From positions 276,878 through 340,877 of the forward strand of contig CAWIKL010000002.1 of the NCBI GenBank assembly GCA_963836665.1: a stretch of 64,000 nucleotides of DNA, given 5' to 3'. How positions within the stretch are numbered: the first letter of the stretch is position 1; each line of letters opens with the position of its first letter. The position numbers and the translations under genes were made by a program. Below the pieces are notes generated by a model. The model was not told the DNA's origin. It saw only the letters and a program-made list of their open reading frames with translations, and made no database searches. This document shows positions 4,612-50,696 of the stretch, one piece after another. Source of the stretch: an uncultured Acidobacteriota bacterium (lineage in GTDB: Bacteria; Acidobacteriota; Vicinamibacteria; Vicinamibacterales; 2-12-FULL-66-21).

Positions 4612-4687
4612 AGGCGCGTAGCTCAGTGGTTAGAGCGCCTGCTTGACACGCAGGAGGTCGGTGGTTCGACTCCACTCGCGCCTACCA
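4612..4687 (+). tRNA. tRNA-Val (anticodon GAC), CCA encoded
   Basis: Acceptor AGGCGCG (4612-4618) pairs with CGCGCCT (4677-4683). U8 is present, the D arm is GCTCAGTGGTTAGAGC, and the anticodon stem-loop is CCTGC-TTGACAC-GCAGG with GAC at positions 34-36 (4645-4647). The T arm is GGTGGTTCGACTCCACT, followed by discriminator A and CCA. Confidence 0.95.
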
Positions 4688-12085: not shown

Positions 12086-12290
12086 GAGGAGTTCGAGTTC
12101 CCTGCTTTGCACGTGATGGTCCATGGAGGCTCGCTTTGAGCCAATGCTCCATCTAAGCGAATCGCGGCGCCGCGCCGTGTGCACGCCTCTGCGAGAGGAA
12201 GCCTGACGCGCGGTGACGAACGGCGGTTCCACCTGGTTATAGCCAGGTTCAAACGACCTCCCCACACGGCAAAGCGGGGCCTTTCTCCAC
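12086..12290 (+). ncRNA. ssrS: candidate 6S RNA
   Basis: The 258-nt gap after zapA has no convincing ORF. The closing helix pairs 12088-12091 GGAG with 12285-12288 CTCC, 12100-12110 CCCTGCTTTGC with 12269-12279 GCAAAGCGGGG, and 12112-12115 CGTG with 12265-12268 CACG. Internal hairpins are ATGGAG/CTCCAT, CCTCT-gcg-AGAGG and CCTGG-ttatag-CCAGG. The zapA-ssrS linkage is known from E. coli. Confidence 0.55.
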
Positions 12291-30659: not shown

Positions 30660-31015
30660 GGGGGCGAATCAGCTTCGACGGAGATACGGTTTCGCAGGAT
30701 GCGTGCCGAGGACCATCACCCTCGTAAATCAGATGGAAAACAACCTAACTGCGGACACGCAGCTCGCTCTCGCAGCCTAAGAACCTGTGAGCGTCCGTCC
30801 TCATCAGCCTACGGGTGGGACACGGATGTCATTTTAGTAGGCTGGCCGTGATCGGCTGCCTCGAACGATCATCCGGCGAGACGTCTTCGGGGTTGGTGCC
30901 CGGCGGTTTTTCTGCGTCTTCACGCCGGGTGCGACAACACAGACGCGGATACGCATCGTAGATTCCTGCGGGGATGTGTTTTCGGACCCGGGTGCAACTC
31001 CCGGCGCCTCCACCA
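30660..31015 (+). ncRNA. ssrA: transfer-messenger RNA (tmRNA)
   Basis: The 5' end GGGGGCG pairs with the 3' end CGCCTCC-A-CCA, including the G3:U pair. GATTCGACGG-like sequence follows (cagcttcgacgg). The T-arm is GGACCCGGGTGCAACTCCCGG. The internal tag frame ends ...GCT CTC GCA GCC TAA (LALAA stop) at 30766-30780. Confidence 0.93.
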
Positions 31016-40793: not shown

Positions 40794-41127
40794 CGGCTAT
40801 CGACTCCGAGGCAATTGATCTTCGGCGATGACCAGGCGAATTTCGCAGATCCAACCGCGCCTAGTCTACTCTCTCCCAGTTGCGTCGCAGGTCGTCCCTG
40901 ACATCGCACGGATCAGGTCGGCAAGTGGCTGCTGAATGAAGATGGGCGAAGGCCGACTCTTTAGAAGAGAGTCCGACACGTGTCCAATTCTGCACACCCC
41001 GGCGTCGGTCCGGTCGTGCATTCTTGATCATTGACTAGTAAGGCCTTGTTGGCGAACTGCCTCGGGCGTCACGCATTTCCGCGCTCGGCGATGAAATGAA
41101 CTATTCCGAATCGAAGAGAGACTCCCG

Positions 41128-41391
41128 ATGAGCCAGGCTCGCGGGGATCAGAAACCCTGTACCATCGGCGGCTGCGTCGGGCAGATGCGATTTGGCCGGC
41201 GGGGCGACCAGGAGACGGCGGACCCGAGGCCCCCGACTGATGTCACGCGCGGGGTGCGCGGCTGGGTGTGCTCGCTGTCCCCATTGCATTTCCGGTTGGA
41301 CAGCGACGACGAAGCGGTGCCGGAAATGGGCGCGACGGTCTCCCTGCGCCGACGCCAGGACCGTCGACGGGGCGCCCGGACAATTGCGTGA
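41128..41391 (+). CDS. small Cys/His-motif protein, family A copy 1 (unknown function)
   Basis: 87-aa ORF. Residues 1-64 align with the 49279-49497 ORF (MSQARGDQKPCTIGGCVGQMRFGR...GWVCSLSPLHF vs MTAARGDRRPCTVGGCLGEMQFGR...GWVCSQSVGHF). Confidence 0.55.
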   Translation: MSQARGDQKPCTIGGCVGQMRFGRRGDQETADPRPPTDVTRGVRGWVCSLSPLHFRLDSDDEAVPEMGATVSLRRRQDRRRGARTIA

Positions 41392-41766
41392 CCGGGAACG
41401 ACGGTCGCGTGCCCGGCACGGGTGGACTTCCGCGCATGCGAACTGCGGCGGGTCGGCGACATGGTTCGCCGCCCGAGCCTGAACGTCGAGCCGTGGACGC
41501 CTCCATGGCCAGTCGAGTGTGCAATCGGGTACAGGAGGCGCCGCGGCCCGCCCGCTATACTCGCGTGAGAGTTTTCCAGAACTGAGTCCGCCAGCGATTC
41601 ACGGCTCCCGCTCGATGGGATGCACGCAGACGGCCCCACTTTTGGCCAGCCTGCGGAGCGCGTGTTTCGATCCGCTCACAGCGTTGCCATCGAAAACACC
41701 GCGACGGCCCCGGGGCCGCCACGGGAGATTTCGGCCGGTCCCGGCGCCAACTGGAGAGTCACGTCC

Positions 41767-42102
41767 ATGAATGTCGTCCCACTACACAACCTCATCATCG
41801 TCCGCCGGCTCGATGAATCACCGGATCGCGTCGGCTCGATCATCATTCCTGACTCGGCAAAGGAGAAGCCGCAGCAGGGCACGGTGCTCGCAGCGGGCCC
41901 GGGCAAATCGAACGAGGCAGGCGTGAGGGTACCGCTCGACGTCAGGGCCGGAGACACGATCCTGTTCGGCAAGTACTCCGGACAGGAGATCAAGGTGGAC
42001 GGAACGGACTATCTGATTATGAAGGAAGACGACGTCCTCGCGATCGCGGAGGTCGGACTCGCCGCGACTGATGACCAGGCGACGGGCCGTGCGCACGCGT
42101 AA
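41767..42102 (+). CDS. groES: co-chaperonin GroES (with ~15-aa C-terminal extension)
   Basis: [46 protein letters not shown]...[32 protein letters not shown], plus the tail [17 protein letters not shown]. Confidence 0.93.
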
Positions 42103-43758
<1,656 letters not shown>

Positions 43759-44233: not shown

Positions 44234-44650
44234 ATGCCCTACCATCCCACTCCCCCAGACGAGCCGCACGACGCAGCTCAGCCTGGCAGTTCTGCGGAAG
44301 ATCTGCGGGCGCTAGCGGAGCGGACGCGAGACGAGGCGGAACGGGTCAGACGACTGGCCGATGAAGCGCGGGAAGGACGCGATCGCCAGCGGGACGCACT
44401 CGAAGTGCTCCGTCAGGAGCGGGAGCGACTACGGGAAGCGGCGGAGGGGACCCGGGCCGCCGATGAAGACCTGCGAAAGACGAGTGAGGATGCGCGCGTC
44501 GCCGCTGACGCCGCACGTCACGCGGCGATGGAGGCGGTGTCCGCCACCGCCGACTCGCTGGCGACGACGCTCGAGGGCATGAAGGCCGTCGAAGAAATGC
44601 GACGCGCGCTCCGTGCCTTACGAGGCGAAGTTGAGCCGCGCGACCACTAG
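44234..44650 (+). CDS. hypothetical Arg/Glu/Ala-rich coiled-coil protein
   Basis: 138-aa ORF with good GC3 bias and heptad-like charged repeats. I recognise no family. Confidence 0.45.
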   Translation: MPYHPTPPDEPHDAAQPGSSAEDLRALAERTRDEAERVRRLADEAREGRDRQRDALEVLRQERERLREAAEGTRAADEDLRKTSEDARVAADAARHAAMEAVSATADSLATTLEGMKAVEEMRRALRALRGEVEPRDH

Positions 44651-49278: not shown

Positions 49279-49497
49279 TCACCCGCAATCGTTCTTCGAT
49301 GCGGCGTCCACGATGTCGCCGCAGTCGACGGTGAAATGGCCCACTGATTGCGAGCACACCCATCCCCGACGCTCAGCACGCGCGGTTCCGGCGGACGGTG
49401 CGGTTCCGCGATCCTGATCGTCCTGTCGGCCGAACTGCATTTCGCCCAAACAGCCTCCGACTGTACACGGCCGACGATCGCCTCTTGCCGCAGTCAT
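49279..49497 (-). CDS. small Cys/His-motif protein, family A copy 2
   Basis: MTAARGDRRPCTVGGCLGEMQFGRQDDQD...RRGWVCSQSVGHFTVDCGD... This is a paralog of 41128-41391. The track ORF extends to 49551. Confidence 0.55.
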   Translation of the reverse strand: MTAARGDRRPCTVGGCLGEMQFGRQDDQDRGTAPSAGTARAERRGWVCSQSVGHFTVDCGDIVDAASKNDCG

Positions 49498-49534
49498 CGG
49501 TGCCCCGTTGGTGTCGCCATCCGCCGCGAGACCG

Positions 49535-49900
49535 TCACGCCAGCCACGCATAAACGATGATTGCCGTGATCGCCACGCTCAGCGCGAAGATGGCCAGCAC
49601 CCGTCCCTGTGCATCGGAGCGATCGCCGCCAGCCACCCATCGCGCCCACGATGACCCCGCGGCGCCGTCAGCCGGATGGTTGATGTCATACAGCTCCTGA
49701 CGCAGGCTGGCGACAGGCTGCGCGTGCCTCCATGTGCTCCACGCGACGACGCCTGTCCCGATCGCGAGCGTGATGAGGCCGGCATAGGTTGACGAGTGCG
49801 CCGGGCCGGGCGCCACAGCCATCAACACGAGCGTCGTGACGGCCGGCAGGAGAAGCGATGCGCGCTGTATGGTTCGGTTGCGGGCGAAGGGCGAAGCCAT
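49535..49900 (-). CDS. hypothetical membrane protein (three hydrophobic segments)
   Basis: 121 aa with segments LLLPAVTTLVLMAVAPG, YAGLITLAIGTGVVAW and VLAIFALSVAITAIIVYAWLA. It lies immediately upstream of family A copy 2. Confidence 0.5.
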   Translation of the reverse strand: MASPFARNRTIQRASLLLPAVTTLVLMAVAPGPAHSSTYAGLITLAIGTGVVAWSTWRHAQPVASLRQELYDINHPADGAAGSSWARWVAGGDRSDAQGRVLAIFALSVAITAIIVYAWLA

Positions 49901-49964: not shown

Positions 49965-50291
49965 ATGCGGGGCCTACGGGCGTATGTACCGTTTCGCACA
50001 CCATTCGCGAGACGACTGCCTCAGACTCGTGTCGTGGCCACACCCAGCCCTACGACCGTCGGTGTCCTCGCGCCGCAGCCATTCGCGGCCCGGTCCGGGG
50101 CGACGCGAGTCCTCGACCTCAAACGACCCCTGTCTCCTCTCGTCCGAGGGCTGCGACGCGCGCTCGACGCTGTCGTGGATGTCGGTGCGCTCCTCCTGAT
50201 CGTCTGGCTCATTCCATTCGTCGTCCTGGCGATCGTCAGTCCGGTTGTGCTGATCCTGTGGGTGGTCCAGGCGCTCGTTCACCGGCTGTAA
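49965..50291 (+). CDS. possible small membrane protein
   Basis: The C-terminal 45 codons (LDAVVDVGALLLIVWLIPFVVLAIVSPVVLILWVVQALVHRL) have strong GC3 bias and TM character. The start is not determined. Confidence 0.35.
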   Translation: MRGLRAYVPFRTPFARRLPQTRVVATPSPTTVGVLAPQPFAARSGATRVLDLKRPLSPLVRGLRRALDAVVDVGALLLIVWLIPFVVLAIVSPVVLILWVVQALVHRL

Positions 50292-50417
50292 TTCGCTGAC
50301 TCTCGCAGGAAACTGTCGGTGCGTCGCGCCGCGAGCATGACGCCTTCGCGAACGGTTCAGGCCGGTGTACGATCCGGCACAGCAGGCGCGGGCCGGCACG
50401 ACTACACTGGGAGCGTG

Positions 50418-50696
50418 ATGACACTATCCGCCGACGCGGCCACCTACCGACCGCTTCACGCCTATTTGAGCGGCAGATACGCGGACACCGTAGTGCTGGC
50501 ATTCAGTGAGATCGAAGACCTGCTGGGTTTCGCTCTGCCGGATCAGGCACGCGTGCGCGTGGAATGGTGGACCGACGACACCGTAGACGGCAGCGGTTCG
50601 CCGCGGTCGCAGGCGTGGGCGTGGGCGCAGGCCGGTCGGACGGCCAAGCCGAATCTGTTCGCGCGGACCGTCATCTTCGAGCGCATCCAGTCCTAG
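50418..50696 (+). CDS. family B copy 2 (unknown ~92-aa protein)
   Basis: MTLSADAATYRPLHAYLSGRYADTVVLAFSEIEDLLGFALPDQARVRVEWWTDD...ARTVIFERIQS. This is a paralog of 43812-44110. Confidence 0.6.
   Translation: MTLSADAATYRPLHAYLSGRYADTVVLAFSEIEDLLGFALPDQARVRVEWWTDDTVDGSGSPRSQAWAWAQAGRTAKPNLFARTVIFERIQS

What the first reader, a model, noticed from the sequence alone, without database searches (positions are those of the whole stretch)
41128..41391. Unknown small Cys/His-motif protein present as two diverged copies 8 kb apart on opposite strands
ORF 41128-41391 (+) and ORF 49279-49497 (-) align without gaps over about 64 residues. By my hand count about 29 are identical: M(S/T)xARGDxxPCT(I/V)GGC(V/L)GxMxFGRxxDQ ... 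(R)GWVCSxSxxHFx(L/V)Dxx D.

The conserved C-x4-C ... C-x5-H spacing suggests a small zinc-ribbon-like fold, and I recognise no family. Copy 2 sits in a minus-strand string: 3-TM protein, A2, then a 258-aa unknown protein. Copy 1 stands alone, 334 nt from a divergent ECF sigma gene and 376 nt upstream of groES. The two copies, in inverted orientation, delimit the accessory-looking 41-50 kb block.
Basis: seen in the sequence. Interest (0 to 1): 0.55.

Follow-up and report, generated by a model that had tools for sequence, protein, structure and literature searches.

The report
Unnamed small zinc-ribbon stress protein family
The two short Cys/His genes are real paralogues of an unnamed small protein family found only in Vicinamibacterales-type soil Acidobacteria, probably zinc-binding, usually preceded by a Crp-type regulator site shared with chaperonin genes and often encoded next to two tiny membrane proteins; their biochemical role is unknown.

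Summary
ORFs 41128-41391(+) and 49279-49497(-) share 29/61 identical residues without gaps (E 2e-19).

They belong to a real family that no database describes:
- An exhaustive search found 87 clusters at 50% identity, almost all proteins of 60-110 aa.
- C-x4-C-x-G...W-x-C-x5-H is present in 43 of 44 de-duplicated loci, and 42 of 44 have a Shine-Dalgarno-like sequence.
- Pfam, NCBIfam, PADLOC, PHROGs and PDB give nothing.
- All 13 genome hits are Acidobacteriota or Vicinamibacterales MAGs.

AlphaFold gives both copies two beta-hairpins with the ligands at the knuckles, a zinc-ribbon layout at moderate confidence.

New context:
- 56% of family genes, including both window copies, have a palindromic TGTNC-N6-GNACA box upstream, against 6% of other ORFs in the same loci.
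- The box also precedes groES and neighbouring Crp-type regulator genes.
- Members often sit beside groESL, or beside a 3-TM protein and a 2-TM hairpin protein. The window has both membrane genes next to copy 2.

The idea that the copies delimit an accessory block is not supported.

Best reading: a Cys3His zinc-ribbon protein of a Crp-type stress regulon. A membrane or chaperonin partner is inferred only. Interest is moderate.

The parts
41128..41391 (+). Family copy 1 (87 aa), a small Cys3His zinc-ribbon-like protein. The core is residues 1-57 and the tail is predicted disordered.
   Evidence: ORF and translation. The exact sequence is in public collections as 'hypothetical protein'. L002 is a 95%-identical orthologue with the same synteny. 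AF2 places strands at 8-10, 19-24, 44-48 and 55-57.
49279..49497 (-). Family copy 2 (72 aa), a paralogue of copy 1. It lies 37 nt downstream of the 3-TM gene and is probably co-transcribed with it.
   Evidence: The orthologues P0003 and P0004 sit in the same position after the 3-TM gene in L001 and L003. AF2 gives the same topology.
49535..49900 (-). 3-TM membrane protein (121 aa) and recurrent partner gene ('TM3'). By the positive-inside rule (my inference), its conserved ~45-aa loop between TM2 and TM3 is cytoplasmic.
   Evidence: It is 70% identical to the gene upstream of P0003 in L001. Homologues lie next to family genes in 20 of 96 loci. The HMM hit in the window has E 4e-48. The only database match is a weak DUF202 hit at E 0.02.
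50034..50291 (+). Small 2-TM hairpin protein ('sTM', about 85 aa), the second recurrent partner gene, divergent from the 3-TM gene. The GTG start at 50034 is uncertain.
   Evidence: An HMM built from 29 sTM sequences of other loci hits only this ORF among all six-frame ORFs of the window (E 1.6e-7). sTM is found next to family genes in 36 of 96 loci. Sequence read.
40981..40996 (.). Crp-type palindromic box TGTCCAATTCTGCACA, with its centre 139 nt upstream of the copy 1 ATG. It is followed 20 nt later by TGCATTCTT, which resembles an extended -10 element.
   Evidence: The same box occurs in the orthologous locus L002.
49985..50000 (.). Crp-type box TGTACCGTTTCGCACA in the divergent gap between the 3-TM/copy-2 operon and sTM. 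Its centre is 92 nt upstream of the 3-TM ATG.
   Evidence: L001 has a perfect box, TGTGCCAAACGGCACA, upstream of its 3-TM gene.
41518..41533 (.). Crp-type box TGTGCAATCGGGTACA upstream of groES, followed 22 nt later by TATACT.
   Evidence: Equivalent boxes precede groES in L004 and L007 and lie upstream of groEL in L006, where groES itself was not annotated.
41767..43758 (+). groES (41767-42102) and groEL (42151-43758), which appear to be co-regulated neighbours of copy 1.
   Evidence: ORFs. Other annotators call Cpn10 here. groEL lies next to family genes in 13 of 96 loci. In L006, L028 and L041 the family gene starts 20-35 nt after the groEL stop.
50366..50381 (.). Fourth Crp-type box, TGTACGATCCGGCACA, followed 21 nt later by TACACT, just upstream of the probable ATG (50418) of a DUF7662 gene.

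Best explanation
Both ORFs encode members of a lineage-specific family of small cytoplasmic proteins, 60-100 aa long, seen so far only in Acidobacteriota / Vicinamibacterales.

Structure. The conserved core consists of two short beta-hairpins. Their knuckles carry C11/C16 and C48/H54, the layout of a Cys3His zinc ribbon. The hairpins are joined by a variable, disordered linker of about 15-30 residues, and the N-terminal segment A-R-G-D-x-K-P is conserved.

Regulation. The genes are translated from ordinary Shine-Dalgarno sites. Most are transcribed from promoters carrying a palindromic TGTNC-N6-GNACA box centred about 41-42 nt upstream of the inferred start site. That is the class II layout of Crp/Fnr-type activators. 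Crp-family regulator genes lie within a few kb in about a third of loci. The same box precedes groES/groEL paralogues and the regulator genes themselves. The family therefore looks like a standard member of a Crp-type stress regulon.

Mode of action (inferred). The protein has no enzyme-sized domain. It most likely acts as a metal-stabilised binding module. The best candidate partner is the cytoplasmic face of the two small membrane proteins encoded next to it: a 3-TM protein and a 2-TM hairpin protein.

What is shown and what is inferred. Shown: a real conserved gene family, invariant ligand residues, enrichment of the box, and the gene linkages. Inferred: zinc binding, activation by the Crp-type regulator, and the membrane or chaperonin partner.
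For: The family is real:
- An exhaustive profile search found 87 representatives at E<=1e-3 and 31 at E<=1e-10, almost all 41-140 aa.
- A word-index profile search found 166 clusters at 90% identity.
- C11, C16, C48 and H54, plus G6, D7, G18, M20, G23, R24 and W46, are invariant in 115 sequences.
- The full motif is present in 43 of 44 de-duplicated loci, and an SD-like tetramer in 42 of 44. Clear AGGAGG sites are visible.
- Synonymous sites between the two copies are saturated while the core is kept.

Fold:
- Two independent AF2 runs give strands at 8-10, 19-24 and 44-48, and 55-57 in the copy 1 model only. Core pLDDT is 70-81.
- The only Foldseek hits, all non-significant, are zinc ribbons: Spt4, topoisomerase I C-terminal domain and ribosomal protein L36.

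Taxonomy: all 13 genome loci are Acidobacteriota or Vicinamibacterales MAGs, and at least 3 MAGs have two loci.

Regulation:
- The window has 5 boxes against 0.5 expected, and no shuffle out of 100 reached 5. Four of them lie at 40981, 41518, 49985 and 50366.
- 49 of 87 family loci have a box within 300 nt upstream, or 21 of 43 after de-duplication.
- 51 of 91 family genes have a box, against 5 of 81 other ORFs in the same loci.
- Conserved box-to-(-10) spacing gives the consensus cTGTtCAgAAcgGCACAGACAc...CTGCgAAcAT.
- Neighbouring regulators carry cNMP_binding plus HTH_Crp_2 domains. They occur in 8 of 13 genome loci and 30 of 96 loci overall.
- Boxes also precede crp, groES and histidine-kinase genes.

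Linkage:
- sTM or TM3 lies within 450 nt in 42 of 96 loci.
- All three genes (sTM, TM3 and copy 2) are present in the window.
- groEL is adjacent in 13 of 96 loci, and the family gene lies directly downstream of groEL in three loci.
Against: - No metal-binding or structural data exist. AF2 confidence is only moderate (mean pLDDT 60-63) and no structural match is significant.
- The 64-kb window contains no Crp-type regulator gene.
- The window's own boxes are imperfect palindromes (4 of 5 half-site positions). The spacing to the putative -10 at copy 1 is 2 nt longer than the family consensus.
- Loci with the operon order TM3-sTM-family gene mostly lack the box (2 of 18), so regulation is not uniform across the family.
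- Metagenome loci are partly redundant and many contigs are short, so the linkage frequencies are rough.
- The box could belong to a different regulator than the neighbouring Crp-like proteins.
- The link to membrane proteins and the link to groESL point to different partners, and neither interaction has been tested.
Confidence: 0.5

Rival explanations
1. The protein is a chaperonin accessory. The zinc ribbon would bind GroEL/GroES or their clients, acting as a small co-factor or holdase, and is made together with an inducible groESL paralogue.
For: Copy 1 lies 375 nt upstream of groES, and each has its own box. In L006, L028 and L041 the family gene starts 20-35 nt after the groEL stop, with an AGGAGG site in L006. 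groEL is adjacent in 13 of 96 loci. Hsp20 genes lie nearby in L008, L012 and L033.
Against: Most loci (83 of 96) show no groEL within the available flanks, while membrane partner genes are three times more frequent. There is no DnaJ-type CxxCxGxG motif. Co-regulation alone would explain the proximity.
Confidence: 0.15
2. The protein is a nucleic-acid-binding or polymerase-binding regulator. Like other bacterial zinc ribbons, it would bind DNA, RNA or RNA polymerase and modulate expression of the regulon.
For: Zinc ribbons are common in transcription and translation factors. The weak Foldseek hits are Spt4, topoisomerase I zinc ribbons and L36. The core is basic (R5, K9, R24, R44). The genes often neighbour Crp-type regulators and histidine kinases.
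Against: All structural hits have E>6. No sequence similarity to any such family was found. The tails are acidic or disordered, and 20 of 44 clusters carry a W-x-D-D-G-G tail, which argues against simple nucleic-acid binding.
Confidence: 0.15
3. The protein is an anti-sigma or partner factor of the divergently encoded ECF sigma factor (PF07638) next to copy 1.
For: Copy 1 is divergent from an ECF sigma gene 334 nt away, and this synteny is kept in L002 and L097. Many anti-sigma factors bind zinc.
Against: An ECF sigma gene is a neighbour in only 2 of the 96 related loci, L002 (orthologous to copy 1) and L013, besides the window itself. The ZAS motif H-x3-C-x2-C is absent. In L013 the ECF sigma is followed by a Ser/Thr kinase, the usual partner of this sigma type, and not by the family gene.
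Confidence: 0.04
4. These are chance ORFs in GC-rich DNA, or repeat boundaries of a mobile or accessory island.
For: High-GC DNA produces many spurious ORFs. The two copies are inverted and lie 8 kb apart.
Against: The family has 87 representatives at E<=1e-3 in the exhaustive search (a few of the weakest are spurious) with invariant Cys/His residues and SD sites. There is no DNA-level repeat. GC is nearly the same as the flanks. No integrase or transposase gene, nor any phage-like or defence-like hit, was found for the proteins scanned. The nearest tRNA or tmRNA gene is more than 10 kb away.
Confidence: 0.01

Closest known systems
Zinc-ribbon fold (two-knuckle C4 / C3H ribbons such as Spt4, topoisomerase I C-terminal domains, ribosomal protein L36)
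   Same: Four metal-ligand residues sit in two pairs. Each pair lies in the turn of a beta-hairpin in the AF2 models. A Cys3His ligand set also occurs in L36 (from my own knowledge of that family). The only Foldseek hits are to such proteins.
   Different: The ligand spacing is C-x4-C and C-x5-H, not the usual C-x2-C pairs. The two hairpins are separated by a disordered linker of roughly 15-30 residues (22-37 residues between the second Cys and the conserved Trp). No significant sequence or structure match exists.
Class II CRP/FNR-dependent promoters (E. coli CRP site TGTGA-N6-TCACA centred at -41.5)
   Same: There is a 16-bp palindrome with TGT/ACA outer triplets and a 6-bp spacer. It sits about 18-22 nt upstream of a -10-like element. 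cNMP_binding plus HTH_Crp_2 regulators are encoded nearby and have boxes in front of their own genes.
   Different: The half-site is TGTGC/TGTTC rather than TGTGA. A conserved GAC follows the box. The effector and the cognate regulator paralogue are unknown. No regulator gene lies in this window. Binding is untested.
Zinc-binding anti-sigma factors (ZAS, H-x3-C-x2-C) next to ECF sigma genes
   Same: It is a small Cys/His protein encoded beside an ECF sigma gene, for copy 1 only.
   Different: The ZAS motif is absent, and the sigma neighbourhood is not conserved across the family.
DUF202 (YidH-like) small inner-membrane proteins, compared with the 3-TM partner only
   Same: It has about 120 aa and three predicted TM segments, with a weak Pfam hit over TM1-TM2 (E 0.02, below the cut-off).
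   Different: The score of 15.7 bits is below the 23.4-bit gathering threshold. The conserved cytoplasmic loop is specific to this partner family.

Membership tests
Zinc-ribbon fold | Two beta-hairpins, each with two metal ligands at its knuckle | tested here: met
   The AF2 models of both copies have strands at 8-10, 19-24 and 44-48; the copy 1 model also has 55-57. C11/C16 lie between the first pair of strands. C48/H54 lie at and after the third strand. Core pLDDT is 70-81 and the overall mean is 60-63.
Zinc-ribbon fold | Significant structural superposition on solved zinc ribbons | tested here: not met
Zinc-ribbon fold | Stoichiometric binding of Zn(II) | not testable with these tools
   This needs metal analysis of purified protein. 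The only support is the invariance of C11, C16, C48 and H54 in 115 sequences.
Any curated protein family (Pfam-A, NCBIfam, PADLOC, PHROGs, PDB sequences) | Profile match above the family threshold | tested here: not met
   The best Pfam hit is Ornatin at E 0.03, below the cut-off. NCBIfam and PADLOC give nothing. The best PHROGs hit has E>=0.02 and the best PDB profile hit has E 1.4.
Crp/Fnr-type regulon member | Palindromic TGTNN-N6-NNACA operator in the promoter region, enriched over background | tested here: met
   Window: 5 boxes against 0.5 expected, and 0 of 100 shuffles reached 5. Family genes: 51 of 91 have a box against 5 of 81 control ORFs. Both window copies, copy 2 through its operon head, have a box.
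Crp/Fnr-type regulon member | Cognate Crp-family regulator present and binding the operator | tested here: inconclusive
   Regulators with cNMP_binding plus HTH_Crp_2 domains neighbour family genes in 30 of 96 loci, and 13 of 31 have a box of their own. None is present in this 64-kb window. Binding cannot be tested here.
ZAS anti-sigma factors | H-x3-C-x2-C motif and conserved pairing with an ECF sigma gene | tested here: not met
   The motif is absent from all members. An ECF sigma gene is adjacent in 2 of 96 loci.
DnaJ-type zinc finger | Repeated C-x2-C-x-G-x-G motifs | tested here: not met
   The family has one C-x4-C-x-G and one C-x5-H, and no DnaJ_CXXCXGXG hit in Pfam.

The most novel reading that the evidence does not exclude
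The small zinc-ribbon protein, the 3-TM protein and the 2-TM hairpin protein could form a previously undescribed membrane-associated stress module specific to Vicinamibacterales. It would be switched on by a Crp-family regulator together with a dedicated GroESL paralogue. One possible role is a sensor or adaptor that couples damage to the membrane or to protein folding to chaperonin function.
Probability: 0.2. Interest if true: 0.65.

Novelty: new variant of a known kind. Interest (0 to 1): 0.4.

Why it matters
Vicinamibacterales belong to the Acidobacteriota, a group for which little experimental genetics is available (my own knowledge, not tested here). This analysis turns two anonymous ORFs into three testable things:
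- a defined protein family with an invariant Cys3His motif;
- a candidate operator with a class II promoter layout, which links the family to groESL paralogues and to Crp-family regulators;
- two conserved membrane partner genes.

It also gives clear targets for zinc-binding, EMSA and interaction experiments. The protein itself is a small domain of a common fold type. Without a phenotype or a partner, its wider importance is limited.

Tried and rejected
- Single-sequence word-index searches found only 2 close relatives per copy. The family emerged only from the exhaustive profile search.
- The genome scan with the 79-sequence alignment failed for lack of a conserved stretch. It worked with a 17-sequence alignment, but through one peptide pattern only (CxG[TEI]MQFGR), so the taxonomic range may be underestimated.
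- Pfam, NCBIfam, PADLOC, PHROGs and the PDB sequence profile gave nothing usable.
- Literature searches for the C-terminal W-D-D-D-G-G type motif, and for Vicinamibacter/Crp/chaperonin, returned nothing relevant.
- A DNA inverted repeat between the copies was sought and none was found.
- The composition of the 41-50 kb block shows no clear anomaly.
- Sigma-70 consensus promoters and terminators around both copies: none informative.
- There is no CIRCE element in the window.
- The inferred groES 5' UTR shows no unusual folding, with z = -1.3.
- The 258-aa ORF downstream of copy 2 is not homologous to the gene in that position in L001, so it was dropped as a partner.
- My first strict box pattern, TGTKC-N6-GMACA, found nothing in the window. 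The looser TGTNC-N6-GNACA was then tested against shuffles.

Full report
**1. Observation**

Their products align without gaps over 61 residues, with 29 identities and 39 positives (E 2e-19).
- At the DNA level the aligned 183 nt are only 56% identical.
- Synonymous differences are saturated (pS 0.76) while pN is 0.34.
- No nucleotide-level inverted repeat links the copies.

This is an old duplication kept at the protein level, not a recent repeat.

**2. A real and unnamed family**

Searches with single sequences found only two close relatives for each copy. A six-sequence profile was then run against 1.84 billion cluster representatives.
- It returned 87 proteins at E<=1e-3 and 31 at E<=1e-10. 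Nearly all are 41-140 aa. Three long proteins among the weakest hits look spurious.
- A profile search of the 90%-identity collection gave 166 clusters. The sources label them 'hypothetical protein' or leave them unnamed, apart from one labelled Rieske Fe-S protein, and none has a Pfam domain.

The consensus is M-x-x-A-R-G-D-R-K-P-C-T-x3-C-x-G-T-M-Q-F-G-R, then a variable linker, then (E)-R-G-W-V-C-S-x4-H-F.
- In 115 sequences M1, G6, D7, C11, C16, G18, M20, G23, R24, W46, C48 and H54 are invariant.
- Across 96 loci, which collapse to 44 clusters at >=85% identity, the C-x4-C-x-G...W-x-C-x5-H motif is present in 43. The exception is L016, which is frameshifted.
- An SD-like tetramer lies 4-18 nt before the ATG in 42 of 44 clusters. 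Textbook AGGAGG sites occur in several loci.
- Twenty of 44 clusters carry a C-terminal W-x-D-D-G-G-like tail. Both window copies lack it.

No curated library recognises the family: Pfam, NCBIfam, PADLOC, PHROGs and PDB sequences. All 13 hits in the species-representative genome set are Acidobacteriota or Vicinamibacterales MAGs, and at least three MAGs have two loci. That scan used a single peptide pattern, so the true range could be wider.

**3. Fold**

AlphaFold2 was run with the 115-sequence alignment for both copies.
- The models place strands at 8-10, 19-24 and 44-48 in both copies, and 55-57 in the copy 1 model. A disordered linker spans about residues 29-43, and the tail is disordered.
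- The 10-residue blocks covering the strands average pLDDT 67-81, and the overall means are 59.6 and 62.7.
- C11/C16 fall in the first hairpin turn and C48/H54 in the second. That is the zinc-ribbon arrangement with a Cys3His ligand set.
- Foldseek against the PDB gave no significant match. The weak hits (E 6-10) are zinc ribbons: Spt4, topoisomerase I C-terminal domain and L36.

Zinc binding is therefore a well-motivated inference, not a result.

**4. Genomic context**

I analysed 96 loci: 13 from genomes, 6 from exact-protein look-ups and 77 from metagenomes. Many contigs are short and some loci are redundant, so the counts are rough lower bounds.

| Neighbour | Loci out of 96 |
|---|---|
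| 2-TM hairpin protein (sTM) | 36 |
| Crp-family regulator (cNMP_binding + HTH_Crp_2) | 30 |
| 3-TM protein (TM3) | 20 |
| Unannotated ~240-aa family ('lipo') | 16 |
| GroEL | 13 |
| Histidine kinase | 6 |
| Hsp20 | 3 |
| ECF sigma | 2 |

- sTM or TM3 lies within 450 nt of the family gene in 42 of 96 loci. The arrangements are TM3-sTM-family gene, family gene-sTM, or convergent.
- In L006, L028 and L041 the family gene starts 20-35 nt after the groEL stop.
- In the window, copy 2 follows TM3 by 37 nt.
- The ORF ending at 50291 on the opposite strand is an sTM member. It is the only hit of the sTM HMM among all window ORFs (E 1.6e-7). All three genes (sTM, TM3 and copy 2) are therefore present.
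- The 258-aa ORF downstream of copy 2 is not conserved in that position.

**5. A shared regulator box**

Upstream regions of family genes share a palindrome, TGTNC-N6-GNACA. The best form is TGT(T/G)CAGAAC(G/A)GCACA, usually followed by GAC.
- The window has 5 matches against 0.5 expected, and none of 100 shuffles reached 5.
- Four of these flank the finding:
  - 40981, in front of copy 1;
  - 41518, in front of groES, followed 22 nt later by TATACT;
  - 49985, in the divergent gap between the TM3/copy-2 operon and sTM;
  - 50366, in front of a DUF7662 gene.
- Among loci with enough upstream sequence, 49 of 87 have a box within 300 nt of the ATG. After de-duplication the figure is 21 of 43.
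- 51 of 91 family genes are preceded by a box, against 5 of 81 other ORFs of at least 100 aa in loci L001-L019.
- Boxes also precede groES (3 of 4), the Crp-type regulator genes (13 of 31), the 'lipo' family (12 of 21) and histidine-kinase genes.
- About 18-22 nt downstream of the box lies a conserved CTGCGAACAT-like element that could be an extended -10. That would place the box centre near -41.5, the class II CRP/FNR geometry. This last step is my inference from established promoter architecture.

Caveats:
- No Crp-type gene lies in the window.
- The window boxes are imperfect.
- Loci with the operon order TM3-sTM-family gene mostly lack the box (2 of 18).

**6. Interpretation**

The family is best described as a small Cys3His zinc-ribbon protein that belongs to a Crp-type stress regulon of Vicinamibacterales, together with groESL paralogues. 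It has no catalytic-sized domain. It probably works by binding a partner.
- The 3-TM and 2-TM membrane proteins are the best candidates by gene linkage.
- The chaperonin is the second candidate.
- A nucleic-acid or polymerase target is the third.
- An anti-sigma role is disfavoured, because there is no ZAS motif and sigma linkage occurs in only 2 of 96 loci.
- Chance ORFs and island boundaries are excluded.

**7.

The 41-50 kb stretch has 64-66% GC, against 65-70% in the flanks. It holds groESL, an OmpA-domain protein, a PF04185 phosphoesterase and a coiled-coil protein. No repeats were found, no mobility gene was recognised among the proteins scanned, and the nearest tRNA or tmRNA gene is more than 10 kb away. 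What unites the region is the regulator box, not mobility.

**8. Verdict**

The family is new to the databases but belongs to a familiar fold class. The added value is the regulon and the membrane-partner context. Interest is moderate (0.4).

Noticed in passing
window 41518-41561 and 41767-43758: The groESL operon has no CIRCE element. It has a Crp-type box followed 22 nt later by TATACT, which implies a 5' UTR of about 200 nt with no unusual folding. This looks like a chaperonin paralogue controlled by a Crp-family regulator rather than by HrcA.
   Followed up: partly
window 50366-50696: The ORF with a DUF7662 match (E 5e-7) probably starts at ATG 50418. It is preceded by a box (50366) and by TACACT, so it may be a further regulon member of unknown function.
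   Followed up: partly
window 44234-44650: A 138-aa Glu/Arg-rich coiled-coil protein has homologues in L016 and L035 close to family genes. The L016 copy is preceded by two boxes.
   Followed up: partly
L006 9455-9673, L008 9323-9547, L015 6332-6574, L016 6263-6493 and others: A second unannotated small Cys-rich family of about 75-80 aa (...ISVKHVASxxNQLCAVCxALFIPAEDSGSRVLSIK...) recurs within a few kb of family genes in 7 loci. It has no Pfam or NCBIfam match and no box upstream.
   Followed up: partly
L001 795-1511, L006 6817-7566, L010 4823-5572, L016 6697-7392 and others: An unannotated ~240-aa protein family with an N-terminal hydrophobic segment and the motif FSFYNDQLFR(I/V)VVDY recurs next to family genes in 16 loci. 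A box precedes it in 12 of 21 cases.
   Followed up: partly
L016 6001-6193: The family gene is split by a frameshift relative to its 95-100% identical relative in L008. This is either a pseudogene or an assembly error.
   Followed up: no
family-wide (e.g. L006, L007, L009, L010): Twenty of 44 clusters end with a conserved W-(D/E)-D-D-G-G motif after a disordered spacer. Both window copies lack it. No literature on the motif was found.
   Followed up: partly
window 49279-49551: The exact 72-aa product of copy 2 is not in the public protein collection, while copy 1 and the 3-TM protein are. Existing annotations therefore either use the longer 90-aa ATG at 49551, which overlaps the 3-TM gene, or miss the gene. 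The family alignment supports the 72-aa start.
   Followed up: partly
window 30660-31015, 12096-12284, 4612-4687: The window also contains tmRNA (tag ADTQLALAA), 6S RNA and tRNA-Val(GAC) genes. They are unrelated to the finding.
   Followed up: no
L013 2049-4303: A PF07638-type ECF sigma gene is followed directly by a Ser/Thr protein kinase with TPR repeats, about 1.7-4 kb upstream of a family gene.
   Followed up: no
L033, L034, L042, L043, L047, L055: In these loci a groEL gene lies divergent from the family gene with only about 250 nt between them. That seems too short for a groES gene, which suggests an orphan groEL paralogue. Gene starts were not checked.
   Followed up: no
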